Shown here: in pieces, positions 5,877 to 57,602 of the stretch | Layout: each line of letters starts with the position of its first letter | Position numbering within the stretch: the first letter of the stretch is position 1 | Assembly (NCBI GenBank): GCA_002478275.1 | Contig: DLMY01000031.1 | Span: forward strand, 1 to 64,000 | Reading direction: 5' to 3' | Length of the DNA: 64,000 nt | DNA from: Actinobacteria bacterium UBA7524 | GTDB taxonomy: Bacteria; Actinomycetota; Coriobacteriia; Anaerosomatales; UBA912 | Notes under the pieces: generated by a model | Databases searched by the model: none | Told to the model about the DNA's origin: nothing | Seen by the model: the letters and a program-made list of their open reading frames with translations, nothing else | Program-made: the position numbers and the translations under genes

Positions 5877-6069
5877 TCCCGGTCCGTCCTCCCGCAGCAG
5901 CGATCGGTCCCCGAGTCCCCGCCCGGGTTCGTCCCGGACCTGGGAACTCGATGGACAGCGGACGTTCCCGCCCCTTAGACTTATGTTCCCCGGTCGACAC
6001 TACATATCCGCCGCAGCACCCCCTGGCTGCTGCCGCTATCGAAGGATCCGCGACCTGAGGGAGGGACGA

Positions 6070-6327
6070 ATGGCGAGAGGGCCCGCGCCGCGAACGAAGA
6101 AAGTGGTCGTATACACCTCACCCACATGCCCGTGGTGCAGAGTCGCCAAAGCCTACCTCCTGGAACACGAGATCTCCTTCACCGAGGTCGACATCTACGC
6201 CGATGCTCGCGGACGTCGCGACATGGTACTCATGACGGGGCAGCACGGCGTACCTGTCTTGCGCGTCGGCGAGAAGGCGATGGTCGGTTGGCGTGCCGAG
6301 GAGTTCGACACCCTCTGGCAGCGCTGA
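6070..6327 (+). CDS. Glutaredoxin-like (NrdH/YruB type) protein
   Basis: CPWC active site, GVPV cis-Pro motif; GGAGGG RBS before ATG 6070. Confidence 0.85.
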   Translation: MARGPAPRTKKVVVYTSPTCPWCRVAKAYLLEHEISFTEVDIYADARGRRDMVLMTGQHGVPVLRVGEKAMVGWRAEEFDTLWQR

Positions 6328-6331
6328 GCAG

Positions 6332-7720
6332 CTACGGAAGCTTGTCCGTGAAGTCGATGAACTTCGTGTAGCGCTCGTTGAACACCAGACGCACCTGGCC
6401 GATCGGCCCGTTGCGGTGCTTCGCGACGATGACCTCGGCAACGCCACGCGGCGGCCGGTCTTCATCGTTCTCCTCGGCCGAACGCGGGTCTGTGTTGCGG
6501 TCGATGAACATGACGACATCAGCGTCCTGCTCGATCGCTCCGGACTCTCGCAGGTCGGAAAGCTGCGGCCGTTTGCCTGCGCGCTGCTCGACTGCACGAG
6601 ACAGCTGGGAGAGCGCGAGGATGGGGACGCTGAGCTCCTTGGCGAGGATCTTGAGGCCTCGGCTGATCTCTGCGATCTCTGTCTGTCGGTTCTCGTTGCG
6701 CCGGTGCTGGGGCTGCATGAGCTGAAGGTAGTCGAGGATGATCAAACCGTTCGGCTTGTCACGCAACAGGCGTCTCGCTTTGGCCCGCACTTCGAGGATC
6801 GAGATCGCCGGGGTGTCGTCGACGAAGAAGTCCAGCTCGGCGAGCTGACCCATGGCCCGGTGGATGTTGCCCCAGTCCGGGTCCTTGATGTAGCCGGTGC
6901 GGACGTCTTGCGAGTTGATCCGTGCTTCCGAACACAGGATGCGCTGGATGAGCTGTTCGGCTGACATCTCCAGGCTGAACATCGCGACACTGGCTCCGGC
7001 TTTCGCAGCGTTGACGGCGATGTTGAGCGCCAACGCGGTCTTGCCGACCGAGGGTCGAGCGGCAAGGATGAGCAGATCGCTGCGGTGCATACCGGCCAGA
7101 AGCCTGTCGAGATCCTTGAAGCCGGTGGGAACACCCGTGATGTGCTCTTGATTGTCGAACAGCTCTTCGAGCTGCTTGAACGACAGCGCCAGCAACTCGT
7201 TGATCTCGCGGAAGTTGCCGGAGATCCTCTTATTGGTGACCTCGAAGATGAGGCGCTCGGCTTCCTCTGCGACTTCACGCAGATCATCTGGTGCCTCGTA
7301 CCCCATGTGTACGATCTGCGTCGCCGCGCCGATGAGCGAGCGCAGCATCGCGGTCCGGGCGACGATCTCTGCGTAACGCATGGCGTTGGCGGCGGTGGGG
7401 ACCACTTGTGTGATGTCGAGCAGGTACGGCTTGCCACCGATCTGCTCCAGCTCACCGGTCGCCTCGAGCCTGTCAGCGACGCTCACGTGGTCCACAGGGA
7501 TGTTGCCGGTGTGCAGGTGCTCCATCGCAGCGAAGATCTTCGTGTGCGCTGGCCGGTAGAAGTCCTCGGCCGAGACGATCGTCAGCGCGTTCTCAGCAGC
7601 ATCGCGTGACAGGAACATGGAGCCCAGCAAGGCCTGTTCGGCCTCCAGATTGTGCGGCGGCACGAGTTCGGGAGACGTCACGCCTCGCAACGCGCGTTCC
7701 CTGACGGCACCGTTTGCCAC
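6332..7720 (-). CDS. dnaB: Replicative DNA helicase
   Basis: PPHNLEAEQ, AARPSVGKT, DYLQLM, LSDLRESGAIEQDAD, KHRNGP; GTG start after GGAGGT. Confidence 0.97.
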   Translation of the reverse strand: MANGAVRERALRGVTSPELVPPHNLEAEQALLGSMFLSRDAAENALTIVSAEDFYRPAHTKIFAAMEHLHTGNIPVDHVSVADRLEATGELEQIGGKPYLLDITQVVPTAANAMRYAEIVARTAMLRSLIGAATQIVHMGYEAPDDLREVAEEAERLIFEVTNKRISGNFREINELLALSFKQLEELFDNQEHITGVPTGFKDLDRLLAGMHRSDLLILAARPSVGKTALALNIAVNAAKAGASVAMFSLEMSAEQLIQRILCSEARINSQDVRTGYIKDPDWGNIHRAMGQLAELDFFVDDTPAISILEVRAKARRLLRDKPNGLIILDYLQLMQPQHRRNENRQTEIAEISRGLKILAKELSVPILALSQLSRAVEQRAGKRPQLSDLRESGAIEQDADVVMFIDRNTDPRSAEENDEDRPPRGVAEVIVAKHRNGPIGQVRLVFNERYTKFIDFTDKLP

Positions 7721-7789
7721 ACCGCACCTCCACATCAGTCGGCAGCCGCGGACTGCACCCGCGACCCTGACACTCCATGACCCATCGCG

Positions 7790-7811
7790 ATTCTAGCCCA
7801 GGGGTCTGACA
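7790..7811 (-). promoter_or_regulatory. PafBC/RecA-NDp-type promoter of dnaB
   Basis: Minus strand TGTCAG-N10-TAGAAT. Confidence 0.75.
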
Positions 7812-7893: not shown

Positions 7894-7949
7894 GATTCTC
7901 GGTCAATCTGCGGAGCCTCCCAGGGTAGACAGATGGGGCGGGGAAACAA

Positions 7950-7980
7950 GAAACGCCACCCGCGCTGCGGATGGCGTTTC
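7950..7980 (-). terminator. Intrinsic terminator after rplI
   Basis: GAAACGCCA..TGGCGTTTC hairpin followed by TTGTTT on minus strand. Confidence 0.7.
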
Positions 7981-8006
7981 GGGTTGCACCGAGTCTTCGG
8001 GCGGAT

Positions 8007-25937: not shown

Positions 25938-27014
25938 TCACCTCTCGCCACGCCTGGCCACGGGCAAGCGCATCGTCAGCATCCCGGGCGAAGGTCCCGC
26001 TGCGAGCGAGCCCCCATGCGCGCGGGCGACCGATGCGGCAAGTAGCCTCAGTACGCCCGTGCCCACACCCGCCTCCAGCACAGGATCGGCCTCCTGTCGA
26101 GAAGGCGCGCTTCCGTTCGCCTCGCCCCTGCTCAACCGGATGAACACGTTCGTGTCCTCCTGCTCCAACCGGATAGACACGCCCTCGGGCGCATCACGCG
26201 CTACCAGCACGAACATCGCGGACAACGCCCGTTCCACGCAACGTCTGTCAAGCTCCACCGCACCCACCTCGCGCGCAAAATCGAAGACGACAGGACCGCT
26301 GCCGTGTTCCTGCTCGAACCGCGCGACGACGTCGGTCACAAGCGCCGACAGTTCGACCCGCTCAAGCTCCAGGCGGACGCGACCCGACCGCATCCGGGAC
26401 AGCAAGACCGCGTCGTCCAGCAATTCTGCGACCACCGCCGCATGGTGTTCAACCGCACGGATCGAGCGTGTCCGGCGCGAGGCGTCCTCTAGGATCTCAG
26501 GCCTGGACAGGAGCTGCGCGTACCCTGCCAGGGCGGTCAATGGCTTCTTCAGCTCTGCGGAGACCGACTCAAGCAGATCGTCGAAGGCGTCGGATGCACT
26601 GGCGCCCCCGATGCCCGGGCGCGACAGGCACAACACCGCCGCAGGATGACCTTCGCTGTCGGCAAGCGGCGTCAGCTTGAGCGTGACGTACTTGGAGGAT
26701 CCGTCCTTGTGCAGGGCGATGGTCTCACGCGAGACCGGGTCGCCACCGCCTGCCACCGCCCTCAAGTCGCGAACGGCTCGCACGTGGAGTTCCTCGGGGA
26801 GGTTCGGGAGTCTCGCGCCTATCGCCTCATCCTCGCAAAACCCGTAGAGCACTTCCGACGCGGGGTTCCACCTGACGACCCTGCCATCCAGGTCCAGGAC
26901 CATCGTCGCGTCAGACGTCGCCTGCATCAGGCTCTCGAGCGATGCGATCGCATCAAGCCCGCACGGCAAGACGGCTCTGCGGGACCTGGATGCGCGTTCA
27001 CCCGATCTGCTCAC
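25938..27014 (-). CDS. PAS-domain histidine-kinase-like protein, degenerate
   Basis: PAS (WNPASE..HKDG), H-box reads SAELKKPL, eroded ATPase boxes; AGGGAG RBS before GTG. Confidence 0.75.
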   Translation of the reverse strand: MSRSGERASRSRRAVLPCGLDAIASLESLMQATSDATMVLDLDGRVVRWNPASEVLYGFCEDEAIGARLPNLPEELHVRAVRDLRAVAGGGDPVSRETIALHKDGSSKYVTLKLTPLADSEGHPAAVLCLSRPGIGGASASDAFDDLLESVSAELKKPLTALAGYAQLLSRPEILEDASRRTRSIRAVEHHAAVVAELLDDAVLLSRMRSGRVRLELERVELSALVTDVVARFEQEHGSGPVVFDFAREVGAVELDRRCVERALSAMFVLVARDAPEGVSIRLEQEDTNVFIRLSRGEANGSAPSRQEADPVLEAGVGTGVLRLLAASVARAHGGSLAAGPSPGMLTMRLPVARRGER

Positions 27015-27145
27015 GTGACACTCCCTGAGTAACGGACTGTGCGTACCCCTCTGTATACCACCCTTGAGGAAGCGAGCGAAGAACATCCGCCCAGGAGGTG
27101 GCCCATCTCGCTTCAGGCCTCGTACGTGCTCCTGCGACATGATCC

Positions 27146-27161
27146 TGGCACACACGTTGCT
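27146..27161 (+). promoter_or_regulatory. sigma54-type (-24/-12) promoter
   Basis: TGGCAC-ACACG-TTGCT with GG-N10-GC spacing. Confidence 0.55.
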
Positions 27162-27171
27162 TGCATGGTTC

Positions 27172-27271
27172 CCGAGCGTGGCGACCCGCCTTCTCCTCCC
27201 CCCCTCAGGGGCGGATTCCGCCTGCTCGGCACTGAACGAGGCGCGTCCCCCCACGCGCCTCGTTTCCTTTT
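27172..27271 (+). ncRNA. Candidate small RNA with two C-rich-loop hairpins (6C/cuckoo-like)
   Basis: Hairpin 1 27172-27229 with CTCCTCCCCCCCTC loop; hairpin 2 27235-27264 (12-bp perfect stem, CCCCCC loop) followed by TCCTTTT. Confidence 0.6.
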
Positions 27272-27342
27272 CCGGCCATCTCGGCCACCGAACACGGTTC
27301 TCCTCGGCTAGAATCTGTACGAGACATCCCGGGAGGAACACC

Positions 27343-28332
27343 ATGGCCGACGCGACTGAACGGCTCGTCAATCTGGCCCTGCGCCTCGCCGCCGCGCGCG
27401 GACCGGTCAGCGCCACCCGGATTCGGGACGAGGTCGAGGGCTATCCGGCCGCGGGCGAGCAGGATGACGATGCGTTCAAGCGGATGCTGGAGCGAGACAA
27501 GGATCAGCTGCGCGAGAACGGCTTCGTCATCGAGGCGGATGCCGAAGGCAACTACCGGCTGGACGCGGAGGCGACATTCGCTTCCCGGGTCACGCTCGGC
27601 GCCCTGGAGCGTGCGGTGATGCGCGCCGCCGGGCTCGCGATGCTCTCCGACCCGTCCTTCCCCTTCGCCCCGGAACTGCGCTTCGCGCTCGCGAAGCTCT
27701 CTGCGGGGCCTGAAGGGTTCGATGCCCCGCTGTCCGCTCTTCTGGCCGACGAGGACCCTGTGTCCCAGGGAGCGTCCGTCGCGATCATCACCGGAGCGAT
27801 CGAGGCGCGCAAGACGCTCTCGTTCCGGTACACGAACTCGCTCGGGGAGCACAAGACGCACACCGTCGAGCCGTACGGCGTGTTCGCGCTCGACGGGCGA
27901 TGGTACCTGGTCGCACGCGACCCGAGCCTCGACGAGACGCGGACCTACGCGGTCACCCGCGCCGAGGACCTTGCCGTCAACCCGACACGTCCCAGACACC
28001 CCGATTTCGAACGGCCGGCCGACTTCGACGTGGGCCGCTACATCAACCTGCCGTTCCAATACGGTGCCGAGGAGATCCCTGCCACCATCGTTTTCGCCCG
28101 CGACCAGGCGTGGCGCGCGCCGGCACTCTGTTCGGGCGTCGGGACCCTGACCGAGCGTGACGACGGCACAGCCGAGTGGCACGTGACCGCGCGGGATGGC
28201 AGGCGCCTGCTCAGATGGATGATCGAGAACGGGCCCGGCCTGACCGTGGCAGCACCGTCCACGCTGACAGAGCTGCTGCGGGAGGAGGCGGCCGCCACGA
28301 TGGCGGCGCACGAGGGAGCCTGCGATGCCTAA
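27343..28332 (+). CDS. pafB: WYL-domain transcriptional activator subunit
   Basis: ERLVNL, AFKRMLERDKDQLR HTH, VEPYG..GRWYLVA; GGAGG RBS. Confidence 0.85.
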   Translation: MADATERLVNLALRLAAARGPVSATRIRDEVEGYPAAGEQDDDAFKRMLERDKDQLRENGFVIEADAEGNYRLDAEATFASRVTLGALERAVMRAAGLAMLSDPSFPFAPELRFALAKLSAGPEGFDAPLSALLADEDPVSQGASVAIITGAIEARKTLSFRYTNSLGEHKTHTVEPYGVFALDGRWYLVARDPSLDETRTYAVTRAEDLAVNPTRPRHPDFERPADFDVGRYINLPFQYGAEEIPATIVFARDQAWRAPALCSGVGTLTERDDGTAEWHVTARDGRRLLRWMIENGPGLTVAAPSTLTELLREEAAATMAAHEGACDA

Positions 28333-29275
28333 GGACTCGGCCGCCTTGAGAGCCAGGCGCCTCCTGGCGATCGTACACATGCTCGAACCGGACTCGACCC
28401 TCTCCCTCGCGTCGCTGGCCCGGGCGCTCGACACCACCGAGGAACAGATCGCGTGCGACCTCGAGTTGCTGTCGTGCTGCGCGGTGGACCAGTACGCGCC
28501 CGAGACGTTCGTGCCCGTCTACGTCGAAGACGGCGAGGTGGTCGTCTTCGGCGAACTCCCGGCCCTTGAGCGCGCGATACGGCTCTCGGGCCCCGAGTCG
28601 CGCGCGCTCGCCGCCGCGCTCCAGGCCACCGGCATCGCGCCGGGCGACCCGCTGGTCGCGAAATTGCTGGAGGCCGCAGGAGCGCTCTCCGAGGCCACCG
28701 AGGTCGAACGCGCGATCCGAACCGCGACATCCGCCGCCCCCGCGCATATGAAGGTCCTCTCCCAGGCCCTGCACGAGAACCGGACCGTCACGCTCTCGTA
28801 CCAGAGCGGCGGCTCTCCGATCGCCAGCGAACGCATCGTAGAGCCCGTGTCGTTACTCAACGAGCGGGGCCAGTGGTACCTGGAAGCCTACTGCAGGAAC
28901 GCGGGAGGGCTCAGGACCTTCCGCGTGGACCGCATCCGTGAAGCCACTATCGGCACCGAGGTGTTCTCTCCCAGAGAGCTCTCCCCGACCGGCAGCGCGC
29001 TACCGACCGAAGGTCTGCCCGTGGCCCGGATCGAGTTCGCGCCCGGCGAGCAGGTCAGCGAACGCGATTGGCCGGGGATGAAGGTCGTCGACACGAGCGA
29101 GCGTGGCTTGGTCGTCGACGTACCCTACGCGGGCACACGCTGGATCGCGCGCCGGGTGGCCGCCCGCCTCGGACGGGCGGTCGTACTCTCACCCGCCGAT
29201 ATCCGCGATGCCGTCTGCGCCGTCGCGCGCACCTACACCGAACCGCCGTCCGATCTCCCCGACGGCCTCGGTTGA
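28325..29275 (+). CDS. pafC: WYL-domain transcriptional activator subunit
   Basis: RRLLAI..DLELL HTH, VEP..GQWYLEAYC..RTFRVDRI; overlaps pafB. Confidence 0.85.
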   Translation: MPKDSAALRARRLLAIVHMLEPDSTLSLASLARALDTTEEQIACDLELLSCCAVDQYAPETFVPVYVEDGEVVVFGELPALERAIRLSGPESRALAAALQATGIAPGDPLVAKLLEAAGALSEATEVERAIRTATSAAPAHMKVLSQALHENRTVTLSYQSGGSPIASERIVEPVSLLNERGQWYLEAYCRNAGGLRTFRVDRIREATIGTEVFSPRELSPTGSALPTEGLPVARIEFAPGEQVSERDWPGMKVVDTSERGLVVDVPYAGTRWIARRVAARLGRAVVLSPADIRDAVCAVARTYTEPPSDLPDGLG

Positions 29276-33836: not shown

Positions 33837-35687
33837 CTACACCACCCCCAGCATGCGGGCCAACACGCCACCCGCGAAGAACGCGAGGCCGACCGAGCCG
33901 GCGAACAGGCCGCCCATGTAGGCCCAGCCCCGCTCCTTGACGATCACCATGATGCTCGCGACACAGGGCACGAACAGCGTGATCGTCACCATCGCCACCA
34001 GCAGCTGGGCAGCGCCCAAGTCCATCGTGAAGAAGCCGGCGGCACCGAAATCGCGCCGCACGAAGCCCATCACGAACGCGGTTGCCGCCTCCGCGGGCAA
34101 GCCCAGCCACCCGACGGTGAGTGGCACAAGCGCCGACTGGATGCCTGCGAGCGCGCCGGTCACTTCGAGTATCGAGATGGCGGCCGCCCCGAGGACGAAG
34201 AACAGCGTGACCTCCTTCATGAAGTGCCAGACCTTTGTCACGCTCTTGCGCAAGACGTTCACGACACGCGGAACCCTCAGTGCAGGGATGTCGATGAGCA
34301 GGTCCGTCGACACCCCGGGCGTGATCCTGGCGAGTACCGTGCCGACGCCGACGAAGATCGCAAGCAGCGCGGCGAAGTAGCCGGCTGCATACGCGGGTCC
34401 CACGCCGGCCATGAGCGCGGCGATGACGGCGATCTGCGCCGAGCAGGGCACCGCGATGGCCATGAGCGCGGTCGCGATGAAACGCTCACGTCTGCTTCCC
34501 AATATCCGCGTGGTCAACGTACCCATGGTCACGCAGCCCAGGCCGAGTATCAGCGGGATGACCGCGCGGCCGTTGAGACCGATGCCCGACAAGGCCCTGT
34601 CAGCGAGGGCGGCTATCCTCGGCAGGTAACCCGAGTCCTCGAGCACCGCGAGCAACACGTAGAAGCCGGTCACCAGCGGTAGGATCACGCCGATCAGATA
34701 CGTCGGCGTCATGGTAAGCACCCCGAACTCGCCTGCCAGCACCGTGTGCACCGCGCCACCTTGCGCGAAGACGCGGCCGACCAGGCTCTCGACGAGCGGC
34801 ACGAACCTGGCCTCGAACACCTCGGTACCCAGCCAGTCGACCAGCCCGCCGGCAAGCCACTCCCCCAGCACCACATACATGGCGTAGAGCAACGCACCCA
34901 GCATGGGAAGCCCGGTGGCGGGGTGCATCATCGCCCGGGAAAGCCGCGTCGCGAACGACGTCCCCTCGGAGGTCTCGGTCAGCACGTGCCCCACGATATC
35001 GTTGACGCGCTCCCTGCGACGCAGGTAGATGGCGTCGCGCCCGCCGCCCGGCTCGATGCCGTGACGCCCGGCCACGGTCTCGTCGCCCTCGAGCACCAGC
35101 AGGGCCTCGGCGCGGGTTCCCGCGCGTGCCGCCATGAGCACGATGTCCTCGTCCAGCAACCGGTCCGCATACCCAGCATGCGCACTGTCGATCGCGGAGA
35201 CCAGTTCCGGTATTCCCGTGCCCTTGATGGCGACGGTCTCCACCACCGGTACGCCGAGGAGATCTGACAGCAGGTCCCGGTCGATGACGACGCCCTGTGT
35301 GCGCGCTTCGTCGGCCATGTTGAGGGCGACGACCATGCGCTTGCCCATATCGATGAGCTGGAGCGTGAGGAACAGGTCGCGTTCCAGATGTGCGGCCTCG
35401 ACGACGTTGATGACGATGTCCGCGTCCATGATGATGTCACGCGCAACGCGTTCCTCGTCGTTGAAGCTGGACACGCCGTAGACGCCGGGGGTGTCGACCA
35501 GGCACCTTCCCTCGATGGAGCCACGCGTGAGCTCCACCGTGGTACCAGGGTAGTTGGAGACGTCGACATACACGCCGGTCAACGCGTTGAACACGACAGA
35601 CTTGCCGACGTTGGGGTTACCCGCAAGCACGACGGTCTCCGTGTCCGGTCGCACGATGAGAGAGTTGGGAGCATGCGTGTGAGCCAC
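33837..35687 (-). CDS. feoB: Ferrous iron transporter B
   Basis: GNPNVGKS, NYPGTT, DTPG, NMAD, LEDSGY, GLGC, PCSA; exact start uncertain. Confidence 0.95.
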   Translation of the reverse strand: MAHTHAPNSLIVRPDTETVVLAGNPNVGKSVVFNALTGVYVDVSNYPGTTVELTRGSIEGRCLVDTPGVYGVSSFNDEERVARDIIMDADIVINVVEAAHLERDLFLTLQLIDMGKRMVVALNMADEARTQGVVIDRDLLSDLLGVPVVETVAIKGTGIPELVSAIDSAHAGYADRLLDEDIVLMAARAGTRAEALLVLEGDETVAGRHGIEPGGGRDAIYLRRRERVNDIVGHVLTETSEGTSFATRLSRAMMHPATGLPMLGALLYAMYVVLGEWLAGGLVDWLGTEVFEARFVPLVESLVGRVFAQGGAVHTVLAGEFGVLTMTPTYLIGVILPLVTGFYVLLAVLEDSGYLPRIAALADRALSGIGLNGRAVIPLILGLGCVTMGTLTTRILGSRRERFIATALMAIAVPCSAQIAVIAALMAGVGPAYAAGYFAALLAIFVGVGTVLARITPGVSTDLLIDIPALRVPRVVNVLRKSVTKVWHFMKEVTLFFVLGAAAISILEVTGALAGIQSALVPLTVGWLGLPAEAATAFVMGFVRRDFGAAGFFTMDLGAAQLLVAMVTITLFVPCVASIMVIVKERGWAYMGGLFAGSVGLAFFAGGVLARMLGVV

Positions 35688-35689
35688 GA

Positions 35690-36004
35690 TCAGTTCACCC
35701 GCTTCCCGCACTCGTCGCATCGCCTCACCCTGATGCGCGATGCCAGTCCCCGGCCCACCGCGATCTCCTGGCGGCCCTGTCTGACGATCACGGGTCCAGC
35801 AGGGACTTTGGTCACACACGAGAGATTCGAACCGCTGCACATACCGAAGCGCAGAGCATGGACGCGGGCGCGATCATCGTCCACGGACAGGACCTCCACC
35901 CGGTCTCCCGCGCGAACGCGATCGAGTGTGGTGTCCGTGCCATCTTGCCGCCGGCCCCGGCCGTATCCGCGGCCGTGACCTCGGCCTGAGTGTCTACGCA
36001 TCAT
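35690..36004 (-). CDS. feoA: Ferrous iron transport protein A
   Basis: LRFGM..GPVIV..EIAVGRGLA SH3-like fold; GGAGG RBS. Confidence 0.88.
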   Translation of the reverse strand: MMRRHSGRGHGRGYGRGRRQDGTDTTLDRVRAGDRVEVLSVDDDRARVHALRFGMCSGSNLSCVTKVPAGPVIVRQGRQEIAVGRGLASRIRVRRCDECGKRVN

Positions 36005-36032
36005 GGGGGAGTCCTCCTGCAAGCTGGTTGTG

Positions 36033-36046
36033 TTAGTCTCTGCTAA
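36033..36046. promoter_or_regulatory. Putative DtxR/MntR-family operator
   Basis: TTAG-N6-CTAA palindrome just downstream of the feoA -10 (TAGCAT, 36051-36056). Confidence 0.5.
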
Positions 36047-36081
36047 GGCGATGCTAGAGCAGATACTACTCCCCCCCGGAG

Positions 36082-39000
36082 CTAGCCGTCAAGAGCCCGC
36101 GCGTCGATGCGCCGCTTCACCCATTTCTCTATCTCGACCGCGACGAACACGACGCTCGACGCAGCGATCACGAACGCCAGCTCGCCTGCAGACAGCGCTT
36201 GGGTACGAAAGACCGGGTGCAAGAAAGGCACGTACACGGTGGCGAGCTGGAGGACGACTGTGAGAGCCACGGCTCCCAACAAAGGCCGGTTGGAGAGCAG
36301 CCCCTGCCGGAACAGCGACTCCCTGTCCGACCTCACGGCCAGCGCGTGCCCCATCTGACTGAAGCACAACACCGAGAACACCATCGTCTGCCACCGGGGA
36401 TGGTCCATCGCCATCGCGCCTGCCTGTGTCACGAGAGAGGCCGCGCCCATCAGAAGGCCGACCCACACCAGATGTACCGCCAGCCCGTCGGCGAAGATGC
36501 TCTCCTTCGGCGGCCTCGGAGGCCGCTTCATGATCCCCTTCTCGTGAGGCTCGGCCGCCAGCGCCAGTCCTGGCAGACCGTCGGTCACCAGGTTGATCCA
36601 AAGTATATGTATCGGCAGCAGCGGAACCGGCATCCCCAGCAAGGGCGCGAGCAGGATGGTCCATATCTCGCCGGAGTTGCTTGTCATCGTGTACTTGATG
36701 AACTTGCGGATGTTGTCGAAGATCCGCCGCCCTTCGCGGACGGACCCCACGATCGAGGCGAAGTTGTCGTCGAGCAGCACCATGTCGGCAGCCTCTTTCG
36801 CGACATCGGTGCCGGTCACGCCCATGGCGACGCCGATGTCGGCNNNNNNNNNNNNNNNNNNNNNNNNNNNNNNNNNNNNNNNNNNNNNNNNNNNNNNNNN
36901 NNNNNNNNNNNNNNNNNNNNNNNNNNNNNNNNNNNNNNNNNNNNNNNNNNNNNNNNNNNNNNNNNNNNNNNNNNNNNCCTTTGTCCTGCAGGGCTTCGAC
37001 GATCTTGAGTTTCTGCTCGGGCGCCACCCGCGCGTAGACGCGCACGTCTTCGACGCGTCGCTCGAAGCGCTCAAGCGTGAGCTCGTCAAGCTCGACGCCG
37101 GTCATCATCTCCGCGGGGTCCGAGGCGATTCCCAGGCGACTCGCGATGGCCAACGCCGTCGCGGGGTGATCGCCGGTGATCATCACNNNNNNNNNNNNNN
37201 NNNNNNNNNNNNNNNNNNNNNNNNNNNNNNNNNNNNNNNNNNNNNNNNNNNNNNNNNNNNNNNNNNNNNNNNNNNNNNNNNNNNNNNNNNNNNNNNNNNN
37301 NNNNNNNNNNNNNNNNNNNNNNNNNNNNNNNNNNNNNNNNNNNNNNNNNNNNNNNNNNNNTCCGCCGCCTCGGGCCGCGGCGGATCGACCAGCCCCGTCA
37401 TGCCGATCAGCGTCATGTCGCGCTCGATATGCTCGGCGTCCTCCTCGGCGGGCAGCTCGTCGAAGTGCTTGATGCCGAACGCGAGCACACGCAAGCCTTG
37501 TGCGGACCACTCATCCACCTGTGCCGCCAGGGCCTTGCGATCGATCGCCGAGGACTCCCCGCCGCGCTCCATCACCGCTACCGAGCGCGCCATGACCTCC
37601 TCGGCGGCGCCTTTCGTGAACGAGATGTAGCCTCCGTCCGGGAGTGCATGCACGGTGGTCATGAGCTTGCGCTCGGAATCGAACGGGAGCTCGAATGCGC
37701 GTGGGTGGCTGGCTTCGAGCTCATCCCCGAGGTACCCTGCGTCCGCGGCTGCCACGTACAGCGCTACCTCGGTCGGATCGCCCACCAGTTCATGCTCGCC
37801 TTCCGGGTCGCCGGTCACATCGTTCGAGAGCGCCATCGCCATGCCGAGGAGATCGGCCGCTCCAGCAGCCGGCGCTTCACCGCGTGGCTCGACCCCGTCG
37901 GACCCGCCTGCGCTCACGACCTCCACGATCATGCGGTTGAGCGTGAGTGTGCCGGTCTTGTCGGTGCAGANNNNNNNNNNNNNNNNNNNNNNNNNNNNNN
38001 NNNNNNNNNNNNNNNNNNNNNNNNNNNNNNNNNNNNNNNNNNNNNNNNNNNNNNNNNNNNNNNNNNNNNNNNNNNNNNNNNNNNNNNNNNNNNNNNNNNN
38101 NNNNNNNNNNGTGAGCGTGCCGGTCTTGTCGGTGCAGATGAACGTCACCGAGCCGAGGGTCTCCACTGCTGGCAGCCTTCTTACCAGCGTGTGCGTCTTG
38201 ACGAGCCTGCGAGCGCCGATCGCCAGTGTGACCGTCGCCACGGCAGGCAGCGCCTCGGGCACGGCGGCCACCGCCAGACTCACCGCGGTCAGGAACATCA
38301 CGAACGGGTCTTCGCCGCGCAACACGCCGACCGCGAACACCACACCACAAAGCCCGATAGCGGCGTACCCCAGCCCTCTGCCGAACTGCGCAAGCCGCTT
38401 CTGCAACGGGGTCTTCGTATCCCCCGTATCATCGAGCAGCCCGGCGATGCGACCGAGTTCTGTCCCAAGCCCGGTCGCGACAACGACTCCGACGCCTCTG
38501 CCGTGCACGACCTGGGTCCCCCGGTACGCCATGTTCAGCCGGTCACCGAGAGGCGCCCCGCTCGCGATCTCCACACGCGCGTCTTTCTCGACCGGCACGG
38601 ACTCCCCGGTCAGCGCCGCCTCGGCGACGCGCAGACGCGCGGTCTCGACGAGTCGCAGGTCCGAAGGTATCACCCGGCCCGCCTCCAGGAGCACGATATC
38701 TCCAGGCACGAGCGCTGCGGCATCGATCTCGCAGGTCTTACCGTCGCGTCTAACCGTCGCAGTCTCGGCGGCCATCCTGCGCAGTGCCTCCATCGCGCGT
38801 TGCGCACGAAACTCCTGCACCACACCGATCACCGCGTTGAGCACGATGATGACCGCGATCGCGATGGTGTCGACGACCTCGCCAAGCGCCGCCGAGATGG
38901 CGGCGGCTCCCAGCAGCAGCAGGATCAGGAAGTCCTTGAACTGGTCGAACAGCATCATCGCGATGCTGCGCTGCTTTGCCACGGGGAGCTCATTCGGACC

Positions 39001-39156
39001 GAAGCGTTCAAGACGCGAGGCCGCTTCTGCGCCCGTCAGCCCCTCCGCCGCCGTGGAGCCCAGTGACCCCAGCACGCTATCACCTGACAGCGTGTGCGCC
39101 AAACCCGCGTCGAGCAGCATCGTCTCGGCCCCGCCGCTCGCGTGATGATCGCCCAC
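36082..39156 (-). CDS. P-type II cation (Ca2+-like) ATPase (three assembly gaps)
   Basis: [45 protein letters not shown]. Confidence 0.92.
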
Positions 39157-39378
39157 TTCGCCTCCCGCGTCCTTTGCGTCGATGAACTCTGCTGTCGCGA
39201 CTCTCGTCGCAGATGGTAGCGCGAAAACCACGTCTGCGCGACGCAGGGCGTCCGCAGATCCGACCGTGCAGCCCGTTGCCACTCGTCGAGCAATGTAGCC
39301 CGTTGGTCTGTGCATTCGTTTGCCTATCGGCCTTTCCATGCCGATAATCGGACTCAGCCCTTCTCGAAAGGATCATGC

Positions 39379-49178: not shown

Positions 49179-52100
49179 TCAGGGTCTCCCGGTCGGGTGA
49201 CGCGGACAGACCACTCCCGCCGCAGAGCAGTTGTCGCACACTCCGCGCTTCCATACTGCGAGCGGCTCCCTCGACCCGTCCAGCATCCGCACCCAGATGT
49301 CGACAAGCCCGCCTTCAAGCGATGTGGCGTCTTCAGCGACGTATGTGAAGGTCACGGACTCGGGCTGCCCGTTGGCCGCACGCACCTGCGGTCTGATGAA
49401 GTCCAGCTCGACCTTCTCCGCCCCCGCCCGAAACGCGGCGACCGCATAGCACTCCGCCTGCAAGCGATAGCGCTCGATAGCATCGTCGACAGCACTGGTG
49501 CCGCTCTTGTAGTCGACGATCAACACTCCCGATCCCTCCCGAACGTACGCGTCCATCGCACCGACGAGAGTGAACCGAGCCCGGCGGACGCCGACATCGA
49601 CGGCGAAGGGATACTCGAACCTCGCGTCACCTACTGCGACCCTGGCCGCAAGGTCGGAGTCGATGTAGTTGTGCGCCGCAGTCACAAGGTCTGCGACACC
49701 CTCGCGTTCGAGCTCGAACATCCGCGCTATCGACGCCATCCTCTTCTCGTCAGGAAGAACGCCCGTCTCGCCATGTACGCGCAGCACCGCATGGAGAGCG
49801 GCTCCGAATGACTGCGCCGCTGGCCCGCGTGGGCGCAGAGACCCTATGCGCAAGACACGCTCGGCCCAATAGCGTCTCGGGCATGTCTCGAATGCCGCTA
49901 TGTCACTGTAGGAGAGGCGTGGCGGCGTTCCGCTGCCTTCGCCTGTGGATCGTGACACGGCGCTCGGCACAAGCCTGCCGGCCTCGCGCGACCGCCCTGT
50001 ATCATCGACGTCTTTCCGGTCGCGTACCGCAGGGCGGTTCTCTGACCGGAACCCAGCCTCGACCACTCGGCTTCGCACCACCACCCGGCTTTCGTCGCCG
50101 AACACCATGTCGGATTCACGTCCGTCGTTCTCATCGAACAGGCGCGGTATCGCCCCGCGCATCCATGCCAGTGGATTCTGACCATCGGTCGTTCCCGACC
50201 CCGTGCCACTCAGATACAGGAATTCCTGAGCCCTGGTGCACGCGACGTAGAACAGCCGCTTCTCTTCTTCGGCTTCCTCTAGTGCCCGGGCCGACCGCGT
50301 TCGGTAGATGGCCATCGAACCCAGTCGCTTTCGCTCTCTGTCCGAGAACCCTCGCCCCGCCGGAGGAGCCAGGGCGACGGCAACACGCCCCTCGTCTGCG
50401 ACCAGCATGGCCATCGCTGTGTCGCTCCTGCCCCGATCCCCGAGGCCAGCTACGGCAACGACCGGGAACTCCAGTCCTTTGACCGAATGGATACTCATGA
50501 TCCTGACAGCCGGGATCTTCTCATCCGAAAGCGCCGCCGGAGTCTCATGCTCCCCCAGCCGGTCCTTGGCGTCGACATGCCGGACGAAAGCGGCGAATCC
50601 CGCCCCTCCCTGGTCCTCGAATGCATCTGCCATGCGCAGGAACTTGAGGATGTTGGCCATCGCAGCGCGGCCATCGTTCTCCTCGGCAAGTAAGACCGGA
50701 ACTGCTCCCGTGCGCTCGAGCGTCCGCATGAGGACCTCCGAGAGTCTGGCGCGCCCGACATACCCCTGTGCATGCGTGATCGCATCCACCAATCTGGTGG
50801 CCTCCTCGGCCTGCGAAGGTTCGAGGAACACCCGTGCGTCGCTCAACGCATCCCACAGTGAGCTCGCGAGCTTCTCTCGAACCCGCAGACCGACGCGAAA
50901 CAGCGAGCTGTCAGACAGCCCGCTGGCCGGAGACAGCGCCAGAGCAAGCAGCCCATCATCGTCGCGCGGATTGACCATGACGCGGACCAGTGCCCTCATC
51001 ATGTCCGTTTCCGGTAGCCCGAAGAACCTCCGCCCGCCGATGATGGCCACGTCGAACCCCTGTTTCCGCAGCGCATCGGCGTAAACCCCCGCGTGCGTAT
51101 AACGGCGAACCAGCACGACCATGTCGGACGGGTTGATTCCCCGCGCATCCCTCAGCTGTGCGAAACGCTCCGACAGCAGCGCAGCCTCGGTAGCTCGCGC
51201 CTCACGCCCTTCACCCCTCCCTGCCCGAACGAGGGTCAGATGTACGCGGGGTTCTCCCTCCGGCAGAAACGGTGGTTGCGGCTCGCCCCTTCCGTGAGCC
51301 AGTGGAACGAACNNNNNNNNNNNNNNNNNNNNNNNNNNNNNNNNNNNNNNNNNNNNNNNNNNNNNNNNNNNNNNNNNNNNNNNNNNNNNNNNNNNNNNNN
51401 NNNNNNNNNNNNNNNNNNNNNNNNNNNNNNNNNNNNNNNGGAACGAACGAGTCACCGAACAGCTCGGGGCGACCGAACAACTCATTGGAGAAACCCAGCA
51501 CATCCGGGTGGGACCGATAGTTTCGGAACAGCTCTATCCTGGCCGCGCCCCTGTCGGTCATCCTCTCGTTGTGGGCTCGGTAGACTCCTACGTCTGCTCC
51601 ACGGAAACCATATATCGCCTGTCGTTCGTCCCCGACCGTACAGAGGTCCTCTCCGGCAAGAGCGGAGACGATCGCCAGCTGAACAGCGTCTGTATCCTGG
51701 AATTCATCGACCATGGTCAGCGCGAAGCTGGCGGCGCATGCGCTGAGGATCTCCGGATCCGCCTCGATAAGACCGAGCAGACGAAGCTGCAGGTCGTCGA
51801 AGTCGACCACCCCGGCTGCTCCCTTCCTGTGATCGTACTCGCACAGATACGTTCTGAGCAGTTGTACGAACGCAGAGGCCTCTCGAACCGTGGCCGCCTC
51901 GAGGGCTGAAGCGGCAAGCCGGTCCCGTTCAGTCGACAGGGACCGAGTGGCGGCCTCAGCCGCTGCCGCGAGTCTCCCTCCTATCGTGTCAGACAGCAGT
52001 ATCTCCGCCGTAGAGCTGGCGAGCAGCTCGGCACTATCCGCGGTGGCCGAGAGATCCCTCAGCGCATGCAACGTCTCGTTCGCGGCAGCCAGGTTTCCCA

Positions 52101-52749
52101 ATGTGGACTTCGCGTCTCCGCAATCCTGTAGCTCGCTGATGCCTTGAGCGTACACTCGCATGGCATCTTGGAGGATCGCTCCGGGCTCTCGCGTGGAAAC
52201 CGGTCTGATACCGGCAACGTCCATCCCGGCCGACCTGATAGCGCTTTCGATGCCCCTGCATGTCTTGTAGAGCTGTCCGTAGTCCCACGAAGAGAAGAGC
52301 CTCTCTCCCTCCTCGGTACGGACAACCACCCGGGCCGCCGCCTCGAAACTCCGCTCGCGCATCAAGCCCGTCTGCACCGTGTCGGCTACCGAAAGGTTCG
52401 GGTCCAGCCCTGCCTCGAACCAGTGCCTGCGCAATAGACGGCTGCACAATCCGTGTATGGTAGAGATCCATGCTCCGTCGATCCTGCGTGCTTCTTCTGC
52501 ACGTCCCCTTGCCCTCAACAACGTGCGAACGCGCTCAGCCAGCTCTCCTGCAGCGGCATCGGTGAACGTGATCGCTGCGACCTGGTCCGGTGACAGCGGT
52601 TCCCATCCGCTGGCTTCACAGCCAGCCACCGCGTTCACAAACCGCTCGGCCAGGGTGCGCGTCTTTCCCGATCCCGCACCCGCACCGATGAGCACGGGGC
52701 CTCGCAGGGTTTCAGCAGCGCGCTTCTGCTCCGGATTGAGGCCACTCAC
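49179..52749 (-). CDS. addA: UvrD-type helicase-nuclease subunit A (spans gap 51313-51439)
   Basis: AGAGSGKT, VDEFQD, GDERQAIYGFRGA, NYRS, HSVKGLEF, YVACTRA, DYKS nuclease. Confidence 0.88.
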
Positions 52750-56775: not shown

Positions 56776-57568
56776 GAGACACCACTTCCTTAGCTAGGCT
56801 CCTGTATGCTGCGGCCCCCTTGCCCAAGGGGTCGTAGAGAGTGATCGGTTGTCCGAAGCTGGGAGACTCAGAAAGCCGCACCGTGCGAGGTATCAGCGTC
56901 TCGAACACCCTGTCCTCGAAGAAGTCCCTTACTTCCTCGACCACCTGCTGAGAAAGACGGGTTCTTGAATCGTACATCGTCATCGCCACTCCGAAGACTT
57001 CAAGATTCGCGTTGAGGTGTGACCGAACCAGCCGGACGCTGTCAAGCAATTTGGAAAGACCTTCCAATGCATAGTACTCGCATTGGATGGGGATGATCAG
57101 GCCCCCTGCGGCCGTGAGCGCATTGATGGTCAACAGTCCAAGTGAGGGCGGGCAGTCGATGATCACAAACTCGAAATCGCCCAGCACCGGCGCAAGGACA
57201 TTCTTGAGACGATTCTCGCGGCTAAGCGCTGATACCAGCTCGATCTCGGCACCTGCAAGCTGAATGGTTGCGGGTACTACGAACACATGTTCGATTTCGA
57301 CGGGCTCGATCAGCGCCTCCAGTGGCACATCGCTCAGGAGCGCATCGTACACGCACTCACTTCGCTGCGACCTGTTAAGTCCATATCCTGACGTAGCGTT
57401 TCCTTGCGGATCGAGATCCAGCAGCAGAGTCTTGTGCCCGAGCTCGCCCAAGCATGCCGAGAGATTGACAGCGGTGGTGCTCTTGCCGACGCCGCCCTTC
57501 TGGTTCACCACTGCGAACACCCTGGCCTGGCCGGGTGAATGAACGTTTTCGAAGGTCTCGACCACCAC
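56768..57568 (-). CDS. parA: Chromosome partitioning ATPase ParA/Soj
   Basis: NQKGGVGKST, DLDPQGN, DCPPSLG. Confidence 0.96.
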   Translation of the reverse strand: MVVETFENVHSPGQARVFAVVNQKGGVGKSTTAVNLSACLGELGHKTLLLDLDPQGNATSGYGLNRSQRSECVYDALLSDVPLEALIEPVEIEHVFVVPATIQLAGAEIELVSALSRENRLKNVLAPVLGDFEFVIIDCPPSLGLLTINALTAAGGLIIPIQCEYYALEGLSKLLDSVRLVRSHLNANLEVFGVAMTMYDSRTRLSQQVVEEVRDFFEDRVFETLIPRTVRLSESPSFGQPITLYDPLGKGAAAYRSLAKEVVSRV

Positions 57569-57602
57569 GCCCCTCCTCAGGTCAGTGCCCAGAATCGCCC
57601 CG

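What the first reader, a model, noticed from the sequence alone, without database searches (positions are those of the whole stretch)
27146..27271. Candidate sigma54-driven small RNA with two C-rich loops (6C/cuckoo-like) upstream of pafBC
Seen: the ~330-bp gap between the PAS pseudo-kinase and pafB holds TGGCAC-N5-TTGCT. Its predicted +1 (~27172) falls on the first base of a long hairpin (CCGAGC..GCTCGG, inner CCGCC/GGCGG) whose loop is CTCCTCCCCCCCTC. A second perfect 12-bp hairpin with a CCCCCC loop and a T-rich tail follows. pafB has its own -10 (TAGAAT 27309-27314) after the terminator, so this looks like a self-contained ~100-nt transcript. Known: actinobacterial 6C RNA has two C-rich loops, alphaproteobacterial cuckoo RNAs display CCUCCUCCC anti-SD loops, and sigma54 is generally absent from classical Actinomycetia. 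Inference: a trans-acting anti-Shine-Dalgarno sRNA under sigma54/enhancer control, possibly tied to the divergent PAS protein.
Basis: partly seen in the sequence, partly recalled or inferred. Interest (0 to 1): 0.82.

Follow-up and report, generated by a model that had tools for sequence, protein, structure and literature searches.

The report
Conserved C-loop small RNA before pafBC
A roughly 100-base gene for a likely regulatory RNA with two cytosine-rich loops sits in front of the DNA-damage regulator genes pafBC, is kept almost unchanged in a distant relative, and carries a promoter motif of a type reported to be missing from this bacterial phylum.

Summary
The two-hairpin fold is stronger than shuffles (z -4.4). 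The sigma54 motif is the only perfect match in the window, against 0.05 expected.

New evidence comes from one distant relative. An over-extended PafB gene call (P0041, PafB 53% identical) translates its own pafB-upstream DNA. There 50 of 53 determinable bases of the two hairpins match the window. All 7 determinable sigma54 consensus bases match too, while the 15-nt spacer between them differs at 5 or more positions. The match jumps reading frame, so the conservation is not protein-level.

No Rfam family reaches its threshold: 6C scores 18.5 bits against 47, and CcsR1 16.8 against 65.3.

My best reading is an independent ~100-nt trans-acting RNA that pairs with ribosome-binding sites. It works like 6C and cuckoo RNAs but is not a demonstrable member of either.

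The sigma54 part stays open. The motif evidence is strong, but the phylum is reported to lack RpoN, and I could not search this genome for rpoN. Covariation could not be tested, because no DNA from relatives was obtained. No tie to the PAS protein was found.

The parts
27146..27161 (+). Sigma54-type -24/-12 promoter motif (TGGCAC-N5-TTGCT); predicted +1 near 27172
   Evidence: Sequence. Only perfect match in the window, 0.05 expected. In the relative P0041, 7 of 7 determinable consensus positions are identical and the distance to hairpin 1 is unchanged.
27172..27229 (+). Hairpin 1: three stacked helices (7, 4 and 7 pairs) with a 15-nt apical loop
   Evidence: RNAfold (-27.9 kcal/mol alone, z -2.1). 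Three G-U pairs exist only on the + strand. The P0041 changes either keep a pair as G-U or fall in unpaired positions.
27193..27207 (+). Loop 1: C/U-rich, holds CUCCUCCC followed by more C (a run of 7 C); resembles an anti-Shine-Dalgarno sequence
   Evidence: The 5' arm plus loop (27177-27203) is identical at 15 of 15 determinable positions in P0041, which has one base fewer at the 3' end of the C run.
27234..27265 (+). Hairpin 2: 12 perfect pairs plus one G-U pair, loop CCCCCC (27247-27252); likely terminator stem and second seed loop
   Evidence: -23.1 kcal/mol, z -5.9, 0 of 200 shuffles. 25 of 26 determinable positions over 27234-27278 are identical in P0041.
27265..27273 (+). Interrupted T-rich tail after hairpin 2 (probable 3' end about 27270)
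   Evidence: Not called by the consensus terminator scan. Its shape resembles the hairpin plus interrupted T tail that follows rplI at 7941-7993 on the minus strand.
27309..27314 (+). TAGAAT, a -10-like hexamer for pafB downstream of the terminator
   Evidence: GGCTAGAATC occurs exactly twice in the window, here and upstream of dnaB. The sigma70 scan found no two-hexamer promoter in 26000-28500.
27343..28332 (+). pafB-like gene (WYL + WCX domains), ribosome-binding site GGGAGGAA at 27331-27338
   Evidence: Pfam. 584 homologues, best 60-61% identity, some named proteasome accessory factor B.
28325..29275 (+). pafC-like gene (HTH_PafC + WYL + WCX)
   Evidence: Pfam.
25938..27014 (-). Divergent PAS + HisKA protein without a recognisable ATPase domain
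   Evidence: Pfam. No HATPase_c match even at E up to 10.

Best explanation
The element is a single-copy gene for an independently transcribed small RNA of about 100 nt (about 27172 to about 27270, + strand).

Proposed mechanism:
- Transcription starts about 12 nt after a -24/-12 motif that is most simply read as a sigma54 promoter.
- The RNA folds into a long hairpin presenting a 15-nt C/U-rich loop, and then a 13-pair hairpin presenting CCCCCC.
- The second hairpin, with its interrupted U tail, also ends the transcript.
- The two C-rich loops pair with G-rich ribosome-binding sites of mRNAs in trans and block translation. This is the mode shown experimentally for mycobacterial 6C RNA.
- pafBC has its own start signals downstream of the terminator.

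Shown here: the sequence features, the fold statistics, the conservation next to pafB in one distant relative, and the lack of any Rfam membership.

Inferred: that it is transcribed, where its ends lie, its trans action, its targets, and the use of sigma54. I put the sRNA itself at about 0.7 and the sigma54 dependence at about 0.45.
For: (1) Fold. The + strand folds to -52.2 kcal/mol, z -4.4. Hairpin 2 alone has z -5.9.

(2) Conservation. P0041 is a 426-aa over-extended PafB call whose PafB part is 53% identical. Its first 90 residues translate its own upstream DNA.
- They match window 27147-27278 with tblastn E 1.2e-13 within the window.
- The window's frame-0 translation finds P0041 with E 2.8e-5 against 5.8 billion proteins.
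- Over 27177-27278, 50 of 53 determinable bases are identical.
- The match runs frame 0, then frame 1, then frame 0 relative to the window. The conserved blocks are therefore separated by indels of 1 and 2 nt. That excludes selection on a peptide.

(3) Strand and structure.
- The fold uses three G-U pairs that would be A-C mismatches on the other strand.
- P0041 change A27175 to G keeps its pair as G-U.
- C27212 to T keeps its pair if its hidden partner 27188 is G or A.
- T27217 to A lies in an internal loop.
- T27246 to G opens only the loop-closing pair.

(4) Position. The element lies between divergent genes, so no upstream gene needs a terminator there. Hairpin 2 plus its tail looks like the terminator after rplI in the same window.

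(5) Promoter.
- It is a perfect 12-position sigma54 consensus, 0.05 expected per window, with +1 at the base of hairpin 1.
- In P0041, 7 of 7 determinable consensus positions are identical and the spacing to the hairpin is the same.
- The 15 nt between motif and hairpin differ at 5 or more positions.
- The sigma70 scan finds no site.

(6) Mode of action.
- Loop 1 duplexes with the ribosome-binding regions of a glutaredoxin gene (start 6070, -25.4 kcal/mol) and of parA (start 57568, -24.7 kcal/mol).
- Both fall in the best 0.1% of 25,508 tiles. The other 21 of 23 tested regions are ordinary.
- 6C RNA binds G-rich ribosome-binding sites through its C-rich loops without a chaperone (PMC6486639, passages read).
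Against: - No transcript data exist.
- Conservation rests on one relative, seen only through a translation. Third codon positions are hidden, and no two-sided compensatory change could be observed.
- Hairpin 1 alone is only modestly better than shuffles (z -2.1, 4 of 200).
- The consensus terminator scan did not call hairpin 2.
- No Rfam family reaches gathering.
- Target predictions cover only 23 start regions that I picked from ORF lists in a 64-kb window. G-rich ribosome-binding sites pair with any C-rich loop.

Against sigma54 specifically:
- None of the 63 ORF translations scanned matches a Sigma54 or Sigma54_activat family. These were 59 of the 90 ORFs of 200 aa or more, plus 4 shorter ones. 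The 31 left out are overlapping alternative-frame ORFs.
- Near-consensus motifs are not enriched (16 against 21.96 expected).
- PMC12316311 reports rpoN in 4 of 173 Actinomycetota, none judged functional. PMC3162934 says Actinobacteria lack the system (passages read).
- CACGTT at 27153-27158 (TAYGTN in P0041) could serve as a weak sigma70-type -10.
Confidence: 0.45

Rival explanations
1. It is the same trans-acting C-rich-loop small RNA, but a sigma70-family holoenzyme transcribes it. For example, CACGTT at 27153-27158 would be the -10 and the start would lie near 27165. On this reading the resemblance to the sigma54 consensus is coincidental, or reflects some other bound factor.
For: - Actinomycetota are reported to lack functional RpoN (PMC12316311 and PMC3162934, passages read).
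- No rpoN or activator is among the 63 ORF translations scanned.
- In P0041 the hexamer reads TAYGTN, a better match to the actinobacterial TANNNT -10, a consensus I recall rather than checked.
- 6C RNA of C. glutamicum is SigA/SigB-dependent (PMC5014011).
Against: - A perfect 12-position sigma54 consensus is expected 0.05 times per window. Here it also sits at the exact distance from the hairpin.
- A sigma70 -10 does not explain why GG and AC at 27147-27151 are conserved.
- The promoter scan finds no sigma70-like site.
Confidence: 0.25
2. It is a cis-acting leader or attenuator of pafBC. Transcription from the upstream motif either stops at hairpin 2 or reads through into pafBC, so the element sets pafBC expression rather than acting in trans.
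For: - It is on the same strand as pafB and directly upstream of it in both loci seen, the window and P0041.
- In a modelled read-through RNA both hairpins persist, and the pafB ribosome-binding site pairs with a local UUCUCCUC at 27298-27306. Read-through mRNA would therefore be poorly translated.
Against: - pafB has its own -10-like TAGAAT after the terminator.
- No alternative antiterminator pairing appears in the folds.
- The distance from hairpin 2 to the pafB start differs by 48 nt between the two loci, and that stretch is not conserved.
- Loop 1 pairs only moderately with the pafB ribosome-binding site (-14.3 kcal/mol, 6% of tiles are as good).
Confidence: 0.15
3. It is a highly diverged orthologue of actinobacterial 6C RNA. 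That means the same family, moved to a new genomic context and with an enlarged first hairpin.
For: - It has two adjacent stem-loops with 7 and 6 consecutive C in the loops. That fits the published description of 6C: at least 6 C in each of 2 loops of an ~80-nt structure (PMC5014011).
- 6C is among only five sub-threshold Rfam matches. Hairpin 2 aligns to the second 6C hairpin, and both loops hold UCCCCCC.
- The neighbouring genes have actinobacterial homologues.
Against: - It scores 18.5 bits against the gathering score of 47, E 5.6 even in a 551-nt search, and hairpin 1 does not align.
- The RNA is about 100 nt, not about 80.
- The flanking genes are a PAS-HisKA gene and pafB, not the partition or pilus-type neighbours that I recall for 6C (not verified here).
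- C-rich loops have arisen independently in several phyla, for example the cuckoo RNAs (PMC4615179).
Confidence: 0.1
4. It is not an RNA gene. It would be a conserved DNA-level control region for the divergent promoters, or a chance pair of GC-rich hairpins.
For: - It lies in a divergent promoter region.
- The minus strand also folds well (z -3.3).
- High-GC DNA folds easily.
- Only one relative was compared.
Against: - About 100 nt of near-identity (50 of 53 determinable bases) is far longer than protein-binding sites.
- G-U pairs and G-U-preserving changes favour a + strand RNA.
- Both loops are C runs.
- A T-rich tail follows hairpin 2 only on the + strand.
Confidence: 0.05

Closest known systems
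6C RNA (Rfam RF01066; B11 in mycobacteria)
   Same: - Two adjacent GC-rich stem-loops, each showing 6 or more consecutive C in its loop.
- Loop 2 holds UCCCCCC, as does the 6C consensus.
- The host is a high-GC actinobacterial lineage.
- The expected mode of action is the same: C-rich loops binding G-rich ribosome-binding sites without a chaperone (PMC6486639).
- There is a thematic link to DNA damage. 6C rises after mitomycin C and LexA binds its promoter in C. glutamicum (PMC5014011). Here the neighbour is pafBC.
   Different: - The covariance-model score is 18.5 bits against the gathering score of 47.
- The first hairpin is about 59 nt with two internal loops and a 15-nt C/U loop.
- The promoter motif is sigma54-type, not SigA/SigB.
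- The genomic context is different.
Cuckoo / CcsR RNAs of Alphaproteobacteria (RF02791 and relatives), and the Betaproteobacteria toxic sRNA (RF02278)
   Same: Adjacent hairpins carry anti-Shine-Dalgarno-like loops. Loop 1 holds UCUCCUCCC, which matches CCUCCUCCC at 8 of 9 positions.
   Different: - Only one of the two loops approaches the motif.
- Scores are 16.8 against 65.3 bits for CcsR1 and 18.3 against 50 for RF02278.
- It is single copy in the window, whereas cuckoo RNAs are often multi-copy (PMC4615179).
- The phylum is different.
Sigma54-dependent small RNAs of Proteobacteria (Qrr, GlmY, CrcZ; named from my own knowledge, not checked here)
   Same: A -24/-12 promoter lies directly in front of a short structured RNA that ends in a terminator.
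   Different: No sequence or structural likeness. The activator and sigma54 itself have not been shown for this organism. This would be the first such case in Actinomycetota.

Membership tests
6C RNA (RF01066) | Score at or above the Rfam gathering threshold (47 bits) | tested here: not met
   18.5 bits, E 5.6, in a 551-nt search. There was no hit at gathering in the whole window.
6C RNA (RF01066) | Two stem-loops with at least 6 conserved C in each loop, about 80 nt (definition quoted in PMC5014011) | tested here: met
   Loop 1 has a run of 7 C and loop 2 a run of 6 C. The length is about 100 nt because hairpin 1 is larger.
6C RNA (RF01066) | Usual genomic neighbourhood (partition or pilus-type genes; recalled, not verified in any paper read) | tested here: not met
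   The flanks are a PAS-HisKA gene and pafB. parA lies 30 kb away.
Cuckoo / CcsR RNAs | 2-4 adjacent hairpins, each loop carrying CCUCCUCCC (PMC4615179) | tested here: not met
   There are two hairpins. Loop 1 matches 8 of 9 positions, and loop 2 is CCCCCC only.
Cuckoo / CcsR RNAs | CcsR1 covariance model at or above 65.3 bits | tested here: not met
   16.8 bits.
Sigma54-dependent gene | -24 GG / -12 GC promoter with consensus flanks at the right distance from the start | tested here: met
   Perfect TGGCAC-N5-TTGCW at 27146-27161. The determinable positions are conserved in P0041. The start site itself is not mapped.
Sigma54-dependent gene | rpoN present in the genome | not testable with these tools
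   Only 64 kb of a contig of 149,919 bp is visible. None of the 63 ORF translations scanned is Sigma54. The literature reports absence from the phylum.
Sigma54-dependent gene | Enhancer-binding AAA+ activator and an upstream binding site | tested here: inconclusive
   No Sigma54_activat match in the window. An 8-bp inverted repeat (27069-27076 / 27107-27114) is centred about 80 bp upstream, but nothing ties it to an activator.
Intrinsic terminator | GC-rich stem followed directly by a U tract | tested here: inconclusive
   The stem is strong (-23.1 kcal/mol). The tail is interrupted, and the scan did not call it. The rplI terminator in the same window has the same interrupted tail.
Trans-acting anti-Shine-Dalgarno sRNA (functional class) | Unpaired C-rich seed complementary to ribosome-binding sites of specific mRNAs | tested here: inconclusive
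   2 of 23 tested start regions (glutaredoxin and parA) fall in the best 0.1% of 25,508 tiles.

The most novel reading that the evidence does not exclude
An uncultured deep-branching actinobacterial lineage, related to Coriobacteriia or Anaerosomatales, has kept or acquired sigma54. It uses sigma54, through an unknown enhancer-binding activator, to drive a new family of 6C-like anti-Shine-Dalgarno small RNAs that stays linked to the DNA-damage regulator genes pafBC. This RNA would couple a sigma54 signal to translation of genes such as parA and a glutaredoxin. It would be the first sigma54 regulon member described in Actinomycetota.
Probability: 0.3. Interest if true: 0.8.

Novelty: new variant of a known kind. 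Interest (0 to 1): 0.62.

Why it matters
C-rich-loop RNAs that mimic the anti-Shine-Dalgarno sequence are a recurring design, seen in 6C in Actinomycetia and in cuckoo RNAs in Alphaproteobacteria. A new family of this kind in an uncultured Coriobacteriia-like lineage would extend the design to a part of the phylum where no small RNA has been studied. Its near-identity in a relative whose neighbouring PafB is only 53% identical shows it is under strong selection.

Its fixed place in front of pafBC, the master activator of the mycobacterial DNA-damage response, suggests a post-transcriptional arm of that response.

The promoter is the larger point. Two comparative studies state that Actinomycetota lack sigma54. 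A perfect, conserved and correctly placed -24/-12 promoter argues that at least one lineage uses it. One genome search for rpoN would test this directly.

Tried and rejected
- **Orthologous DNA.** It returned one unrelated Bacteroidales WYL locus (31% identity). Hence there was no DNA from relatives and no covariation test. A query built from an alignment of the 50-60% identical homologues would have been the better choice.
- **Fishing for translated copies of the element.**
  - The window's frame-0 ORF against proteins of 49-158 aa: 1 candidate, none scored.
  - The same ORF against proteins of 159-2000 aa: only P0041.
  - HMMER against 1.84 billion representatives: 2 hits, both unrelated repeat proteins.
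- **A second copy.** A covariance model of the element found no second copy in the window or in L001. The best other hit is the rplI terminator, E 0.4.
- **Plasmids.** blastn against plasmids gave 4 short chance matches.
- **Small protein.** Rejected, because the similarity to P0041 changes reading frame twice.
- **PafBC autoregulation.** I looked for the RecA-NDp-type motif, as I recall it, before pafB. It is absent there but present before dnaB.
- **Minus-strand RNA.** Less likely. It folds with z -3.3, but it has no T tail, and the G-U pairs become A-C mismatches.
- **Literature.**
  - Searches for sigma54 in Coriobacteriia, Eggerthella or Actinomycetota MAGs gave nothing relevant.
  - A search for PafBC with sRNA returned only a discussion that RNA might be a PafBC ligand.
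  - The Anaerosomatales description and the OPB41 paper do not contain the word sigma.
  - The class-by-class rpoN table of PMC12316311 is an old .xls supplement, and I did not see it.

Full report
**What is there**

The 328-bp gap lies between a minus-strand PAS + HisKA gene (start GTG at 27014) and a plus-strand pafB-like gene (ATG at 27343).
- TGGCAC-N5-TTGCT at 27146-27161.
- A long hairpin at 27172-27229, whose 15-nt loop (27193-27207) holds CTCCTCCCCCCCTC.
- A second hairpin of 12 perfect pairs plus one G-U pair (27234-27265), with loop CCCCCC and a T-rich tail.
- TAGAAT at 27309-27314.

Pfam confirms the neighbours:
- PAS and HisKA on the left. No ATPase domain is found there even at E up to 10.
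- WYL + WCX (pafB-like) and HTH_PafC + WYL + WCX (pafC-like) on the right.

The window lies near the replication origin, with dnaA, parAB, gidB, jag, yidC and rpsR-ssb-rplI-dnaB. PafB homologues reach at most 60-61% identity. The few that carry a name come from Anaerosomatales, Coriobacteriia or unclassified Actinomycetota MAGs.

**Is it more than chance?**

- The 111-nt stretch folds to -52.2 kcal/mol, z -4.4, and 1 of 200 shuffles folds as well.
- Hairpin 2 alone has z -5.9. Hairpin 1 alone has only z -2.1.
- The minus strand also folds (z -3.3). However, the plus-strand fold uses three G-U pairs, and only the plus strand has a T tail.
- The window has 8 runs of 6 or more C on the plus strand and 3 on the minus strand. 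Two of the eight are the two loops.
- The perfect sigma54 consensus occurs once, against 0.05 expected.
- Looser matches are not enriched: 1 against 1.41 expected at up to one mismatch, and 16 against 21.96 at up to two.
- The consensus scans call neither a sigma70 promoter nor hairpin 2 as a terminator.
- The hairpin that follows rplI (7941-7993, minus strand) has the same shape and the same interrupted T tail.

**Known families**

At gathering thresholds Rfam finds only a tRNA in the window. A permissive search of 26900-27450 gives three weak matches, all driven by C-rich loops on hairpins:

| Family | Score (bits) | Gathering (bits) |
|---|---|---|
| 6C | 18.5 | 47 |
| CcsR1 | 16.8 | 65.3 |
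| Betaproteobacteria toxic sRNA | 18.3 | 50 |

The element meets the verbal definition of 6C: two stem-loops, each with at least 6 C in the loop (PMC5014011, passages). It does not meet the covariance model.

It fails the cuckoo definition, in which every loop carries CCUCCUCCC (PMC4615179, passages). Loop 1 matches 8 of 9 positions and loop 2 does not match.

**Conservation**

My only genome-contig scan used PafB as a single protein. It returned one unrelated locus, so I obtained no DNA from relatives.

One PafB homologue, P0041, gave a way round this. It is 426 aa and its PafB part is 53% identical. It is an over-extended gene call, so its first 90 residues are a translation of its own pafB-upstream DNA.
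- That extension matches window 27147-27278, with tblastn E 1.2e-13 within the window.
- Conversely, the window's frame-0 translation finds only P0041 among proteins of 159-2000 aa, with E 2.8e-5 against 5.8 billion sequences.
- The match runs in window frame 0, then frame 1, then frame 0. The two loci therefore differ by indels of 1 and 2 nt between conserved blocks. Selection on a peptide is excluded.

I then counted only the bases that the amino acids determine:

| Segment | Coordinates | Identical / determinable |
|---|---|---|
| 5' arm plus loop 1 | 27177-27203 | 15 / 15 |
| 3' arm of hairpin 1 | 27205-27228 | 10 / 12 |
| Hairpin 2 plus tail | 27234-27278 | 25 / 26 |

The three differences behave as follows:
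- C27212 to T keeps its pair if its hidden partner 27188 is G or A.
- T27217 to A lies in an internal loop.
- T27246 to G opens the pair that closes loop 2.

A fourth change, A27175 to G, turns an A-U pair into G-U.

No two-sided compensatory change can be seen, because third codon positions are hidden. This is strong evidence of constraint and of linkage to pafB. It comes from one relative only.

**The promoter**

In P0041 the seven determinable positions of the twelve consensus positions (GG, AC, T, GC) are all identical. The other five are compatible, and the distance to hairpin 1 is unchanged. The 15 nt between motif and hairpin differ at 5 or more positions.

Taken together, these features are hard to put down to chance:
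- a perfect consensus;
- placement so that +1 is the first base of the hairpin;
- conservation bounded by a variable spacer.

Evidence against sigma54:
- None of the 63 ORF translations scanned matches a Sigma54 or Sigma54_activat family. These were 59 of the 90 ORFs of 200 aa or more, plus 4 shorter ones. The 31 omitted are overlapping alternative-frame ORFs.
- PMC12316311 finds rpoN in 4 of 173 Actinomycetota and judges none functional. PMC3162934 states that the phylum lacks the system (passages).
- Four further literature searches found nothing on sigma54 in Coriobacteriia-like lineages.

A weak sigma70-type -10 remains an alternative (CACGTT at 27153-27158, TAYGTN in P0041). I could not search the rest of the genome for rpoN, so this part stays open at about even odds.

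**Mechanism**

The most likely reading is an independent ~100-nt RNA whose two C-rich loops pair with G-rich ribosome-binding sites. This was shown for mycobacterial 6C on panD and dnaB (PMC6486639, passages).

In a duplex scan, loop 1 pairs with two start regions at energies in the best 0.1% of 25,508 tiles:
- a glutaredoxin gene (start 6070), -25.4 kcal/mol;
- parA (start 57568), -24.7 kcal/mol.

The other 21 of 23 start regions are ordinary, including pafB (-14.3) and dnaB (-13.3). These are leads from a 64-kb sample, and I picked the start sites myself.

A cis role is the main functional rival. In a modelled read-through RNA both hairpins persist, and the pafB ribosome-binding site pairs with a local UUCUCCUC. 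Against a cis role:
- pafB has its own -10-like element after the terminator;
- the stretch between hairpin 2 and pafB is neither conserved nor constant in length.

**Verdict**

- The small-RNA reading is supported and strengthened.
- Membership of 6C or the cuckoo family is not supported.
- The link to the PAS protein has no support.
- The sigma54 claim is plausible but unproven, and it is the most interesting part.

I found no paper describing an RNA upstream of pafBC. One paper only speculates that RNA, 6C among the candidates, could be a PafBC ligand (PMC6789036, passages).

Noticed in passing
window 7790-7811 (minus strand), upstream of dnaB (6332-7735): TGTCAG-N10-TAGAAT matches the mycobacterial PafBC-dependent promoter motif as I recall it (TGTCRG-N10-TANNNT; not verified in any paper read). 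There are 2 matches in the window against 0.24 expected. The other match, at 34598-34619, lies inside feoB and is probably chance. dnaB may belong to the PafBC regulon here.
   Followed up: partly
window 27306-27315 and 7789-7798: The -10 regions of pafB and dnaB share the exact 10-mer GGCTAGAATC, which occurs only twice in the window. With up to one mismatch there are 4 matches against 2.45 expected.
   Followed up: partly
window 6051-6080 (+) and 57561-57590 (-): The ribosome-binding regions of an 85-aa glutaredoxin (start 6070; Pfam) and of parA (start 57568) both begin GACCUGAGG and continue G-rich. They are the best predicted partners of loop 1.
   Followed up: partly
window 27298-27306: A local UUCUCCUC just upstream of the pafB -10 pairs with the pafB ribosome-binding site in a modelled read-through transcript. 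Only transcripts starting after TAGAAT would leave the site free.
   Followed up: no
window 27069-27076 / 27107-27114 and 27085-27101: A perfect 8-bp inverted repeat, 30 nt apart, is centred about 80 bp upstream of the predicted start. Between its arms lies a G-rich stretch, AGGAGGTGG, that is 82% complementary over 17 nt to the 3' part of loop 1 and its stem. Its function is unknown.
   Followed up: no
window 27064-27342 (+) and 27015-27416 (-): The pafB frame stays open 93 codons upstream of its real start. The PAS-HisKA frame stays open 134 codons upstream of its start. Four of the six frames are open across the element. Gene callers can therefore over-extend these genes, as happened for P0041.
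   Followed up: yes
window 7941-7993 (minus strand): A strong hairpin (-30.3 kcal/mol, z -4.2) with an interrupted T tail lies 14 nt after the rplI stop. It is a model of what terminators look like in this genome.
   Followed up: yes
window 36001-38000: G+C drops to 0.54, against about 0.65 elsewhere. The region holds a P-type cation ATPase gene (37183-39339, minus strand). It may have been acquired by transfer.
   Followed up: no
window 49179-55550 (minus strand): Three adjacent ORFs carry UvrD-helicase, UvrD_C and PD-(D/E)XK nuclease domains, as in an AddAB/AdnAB-type helicase-nuclease. The helicase part appears split between 51211-52797 and 49179-51503. I did not check whether this is a frameshift.
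   Followed up: no
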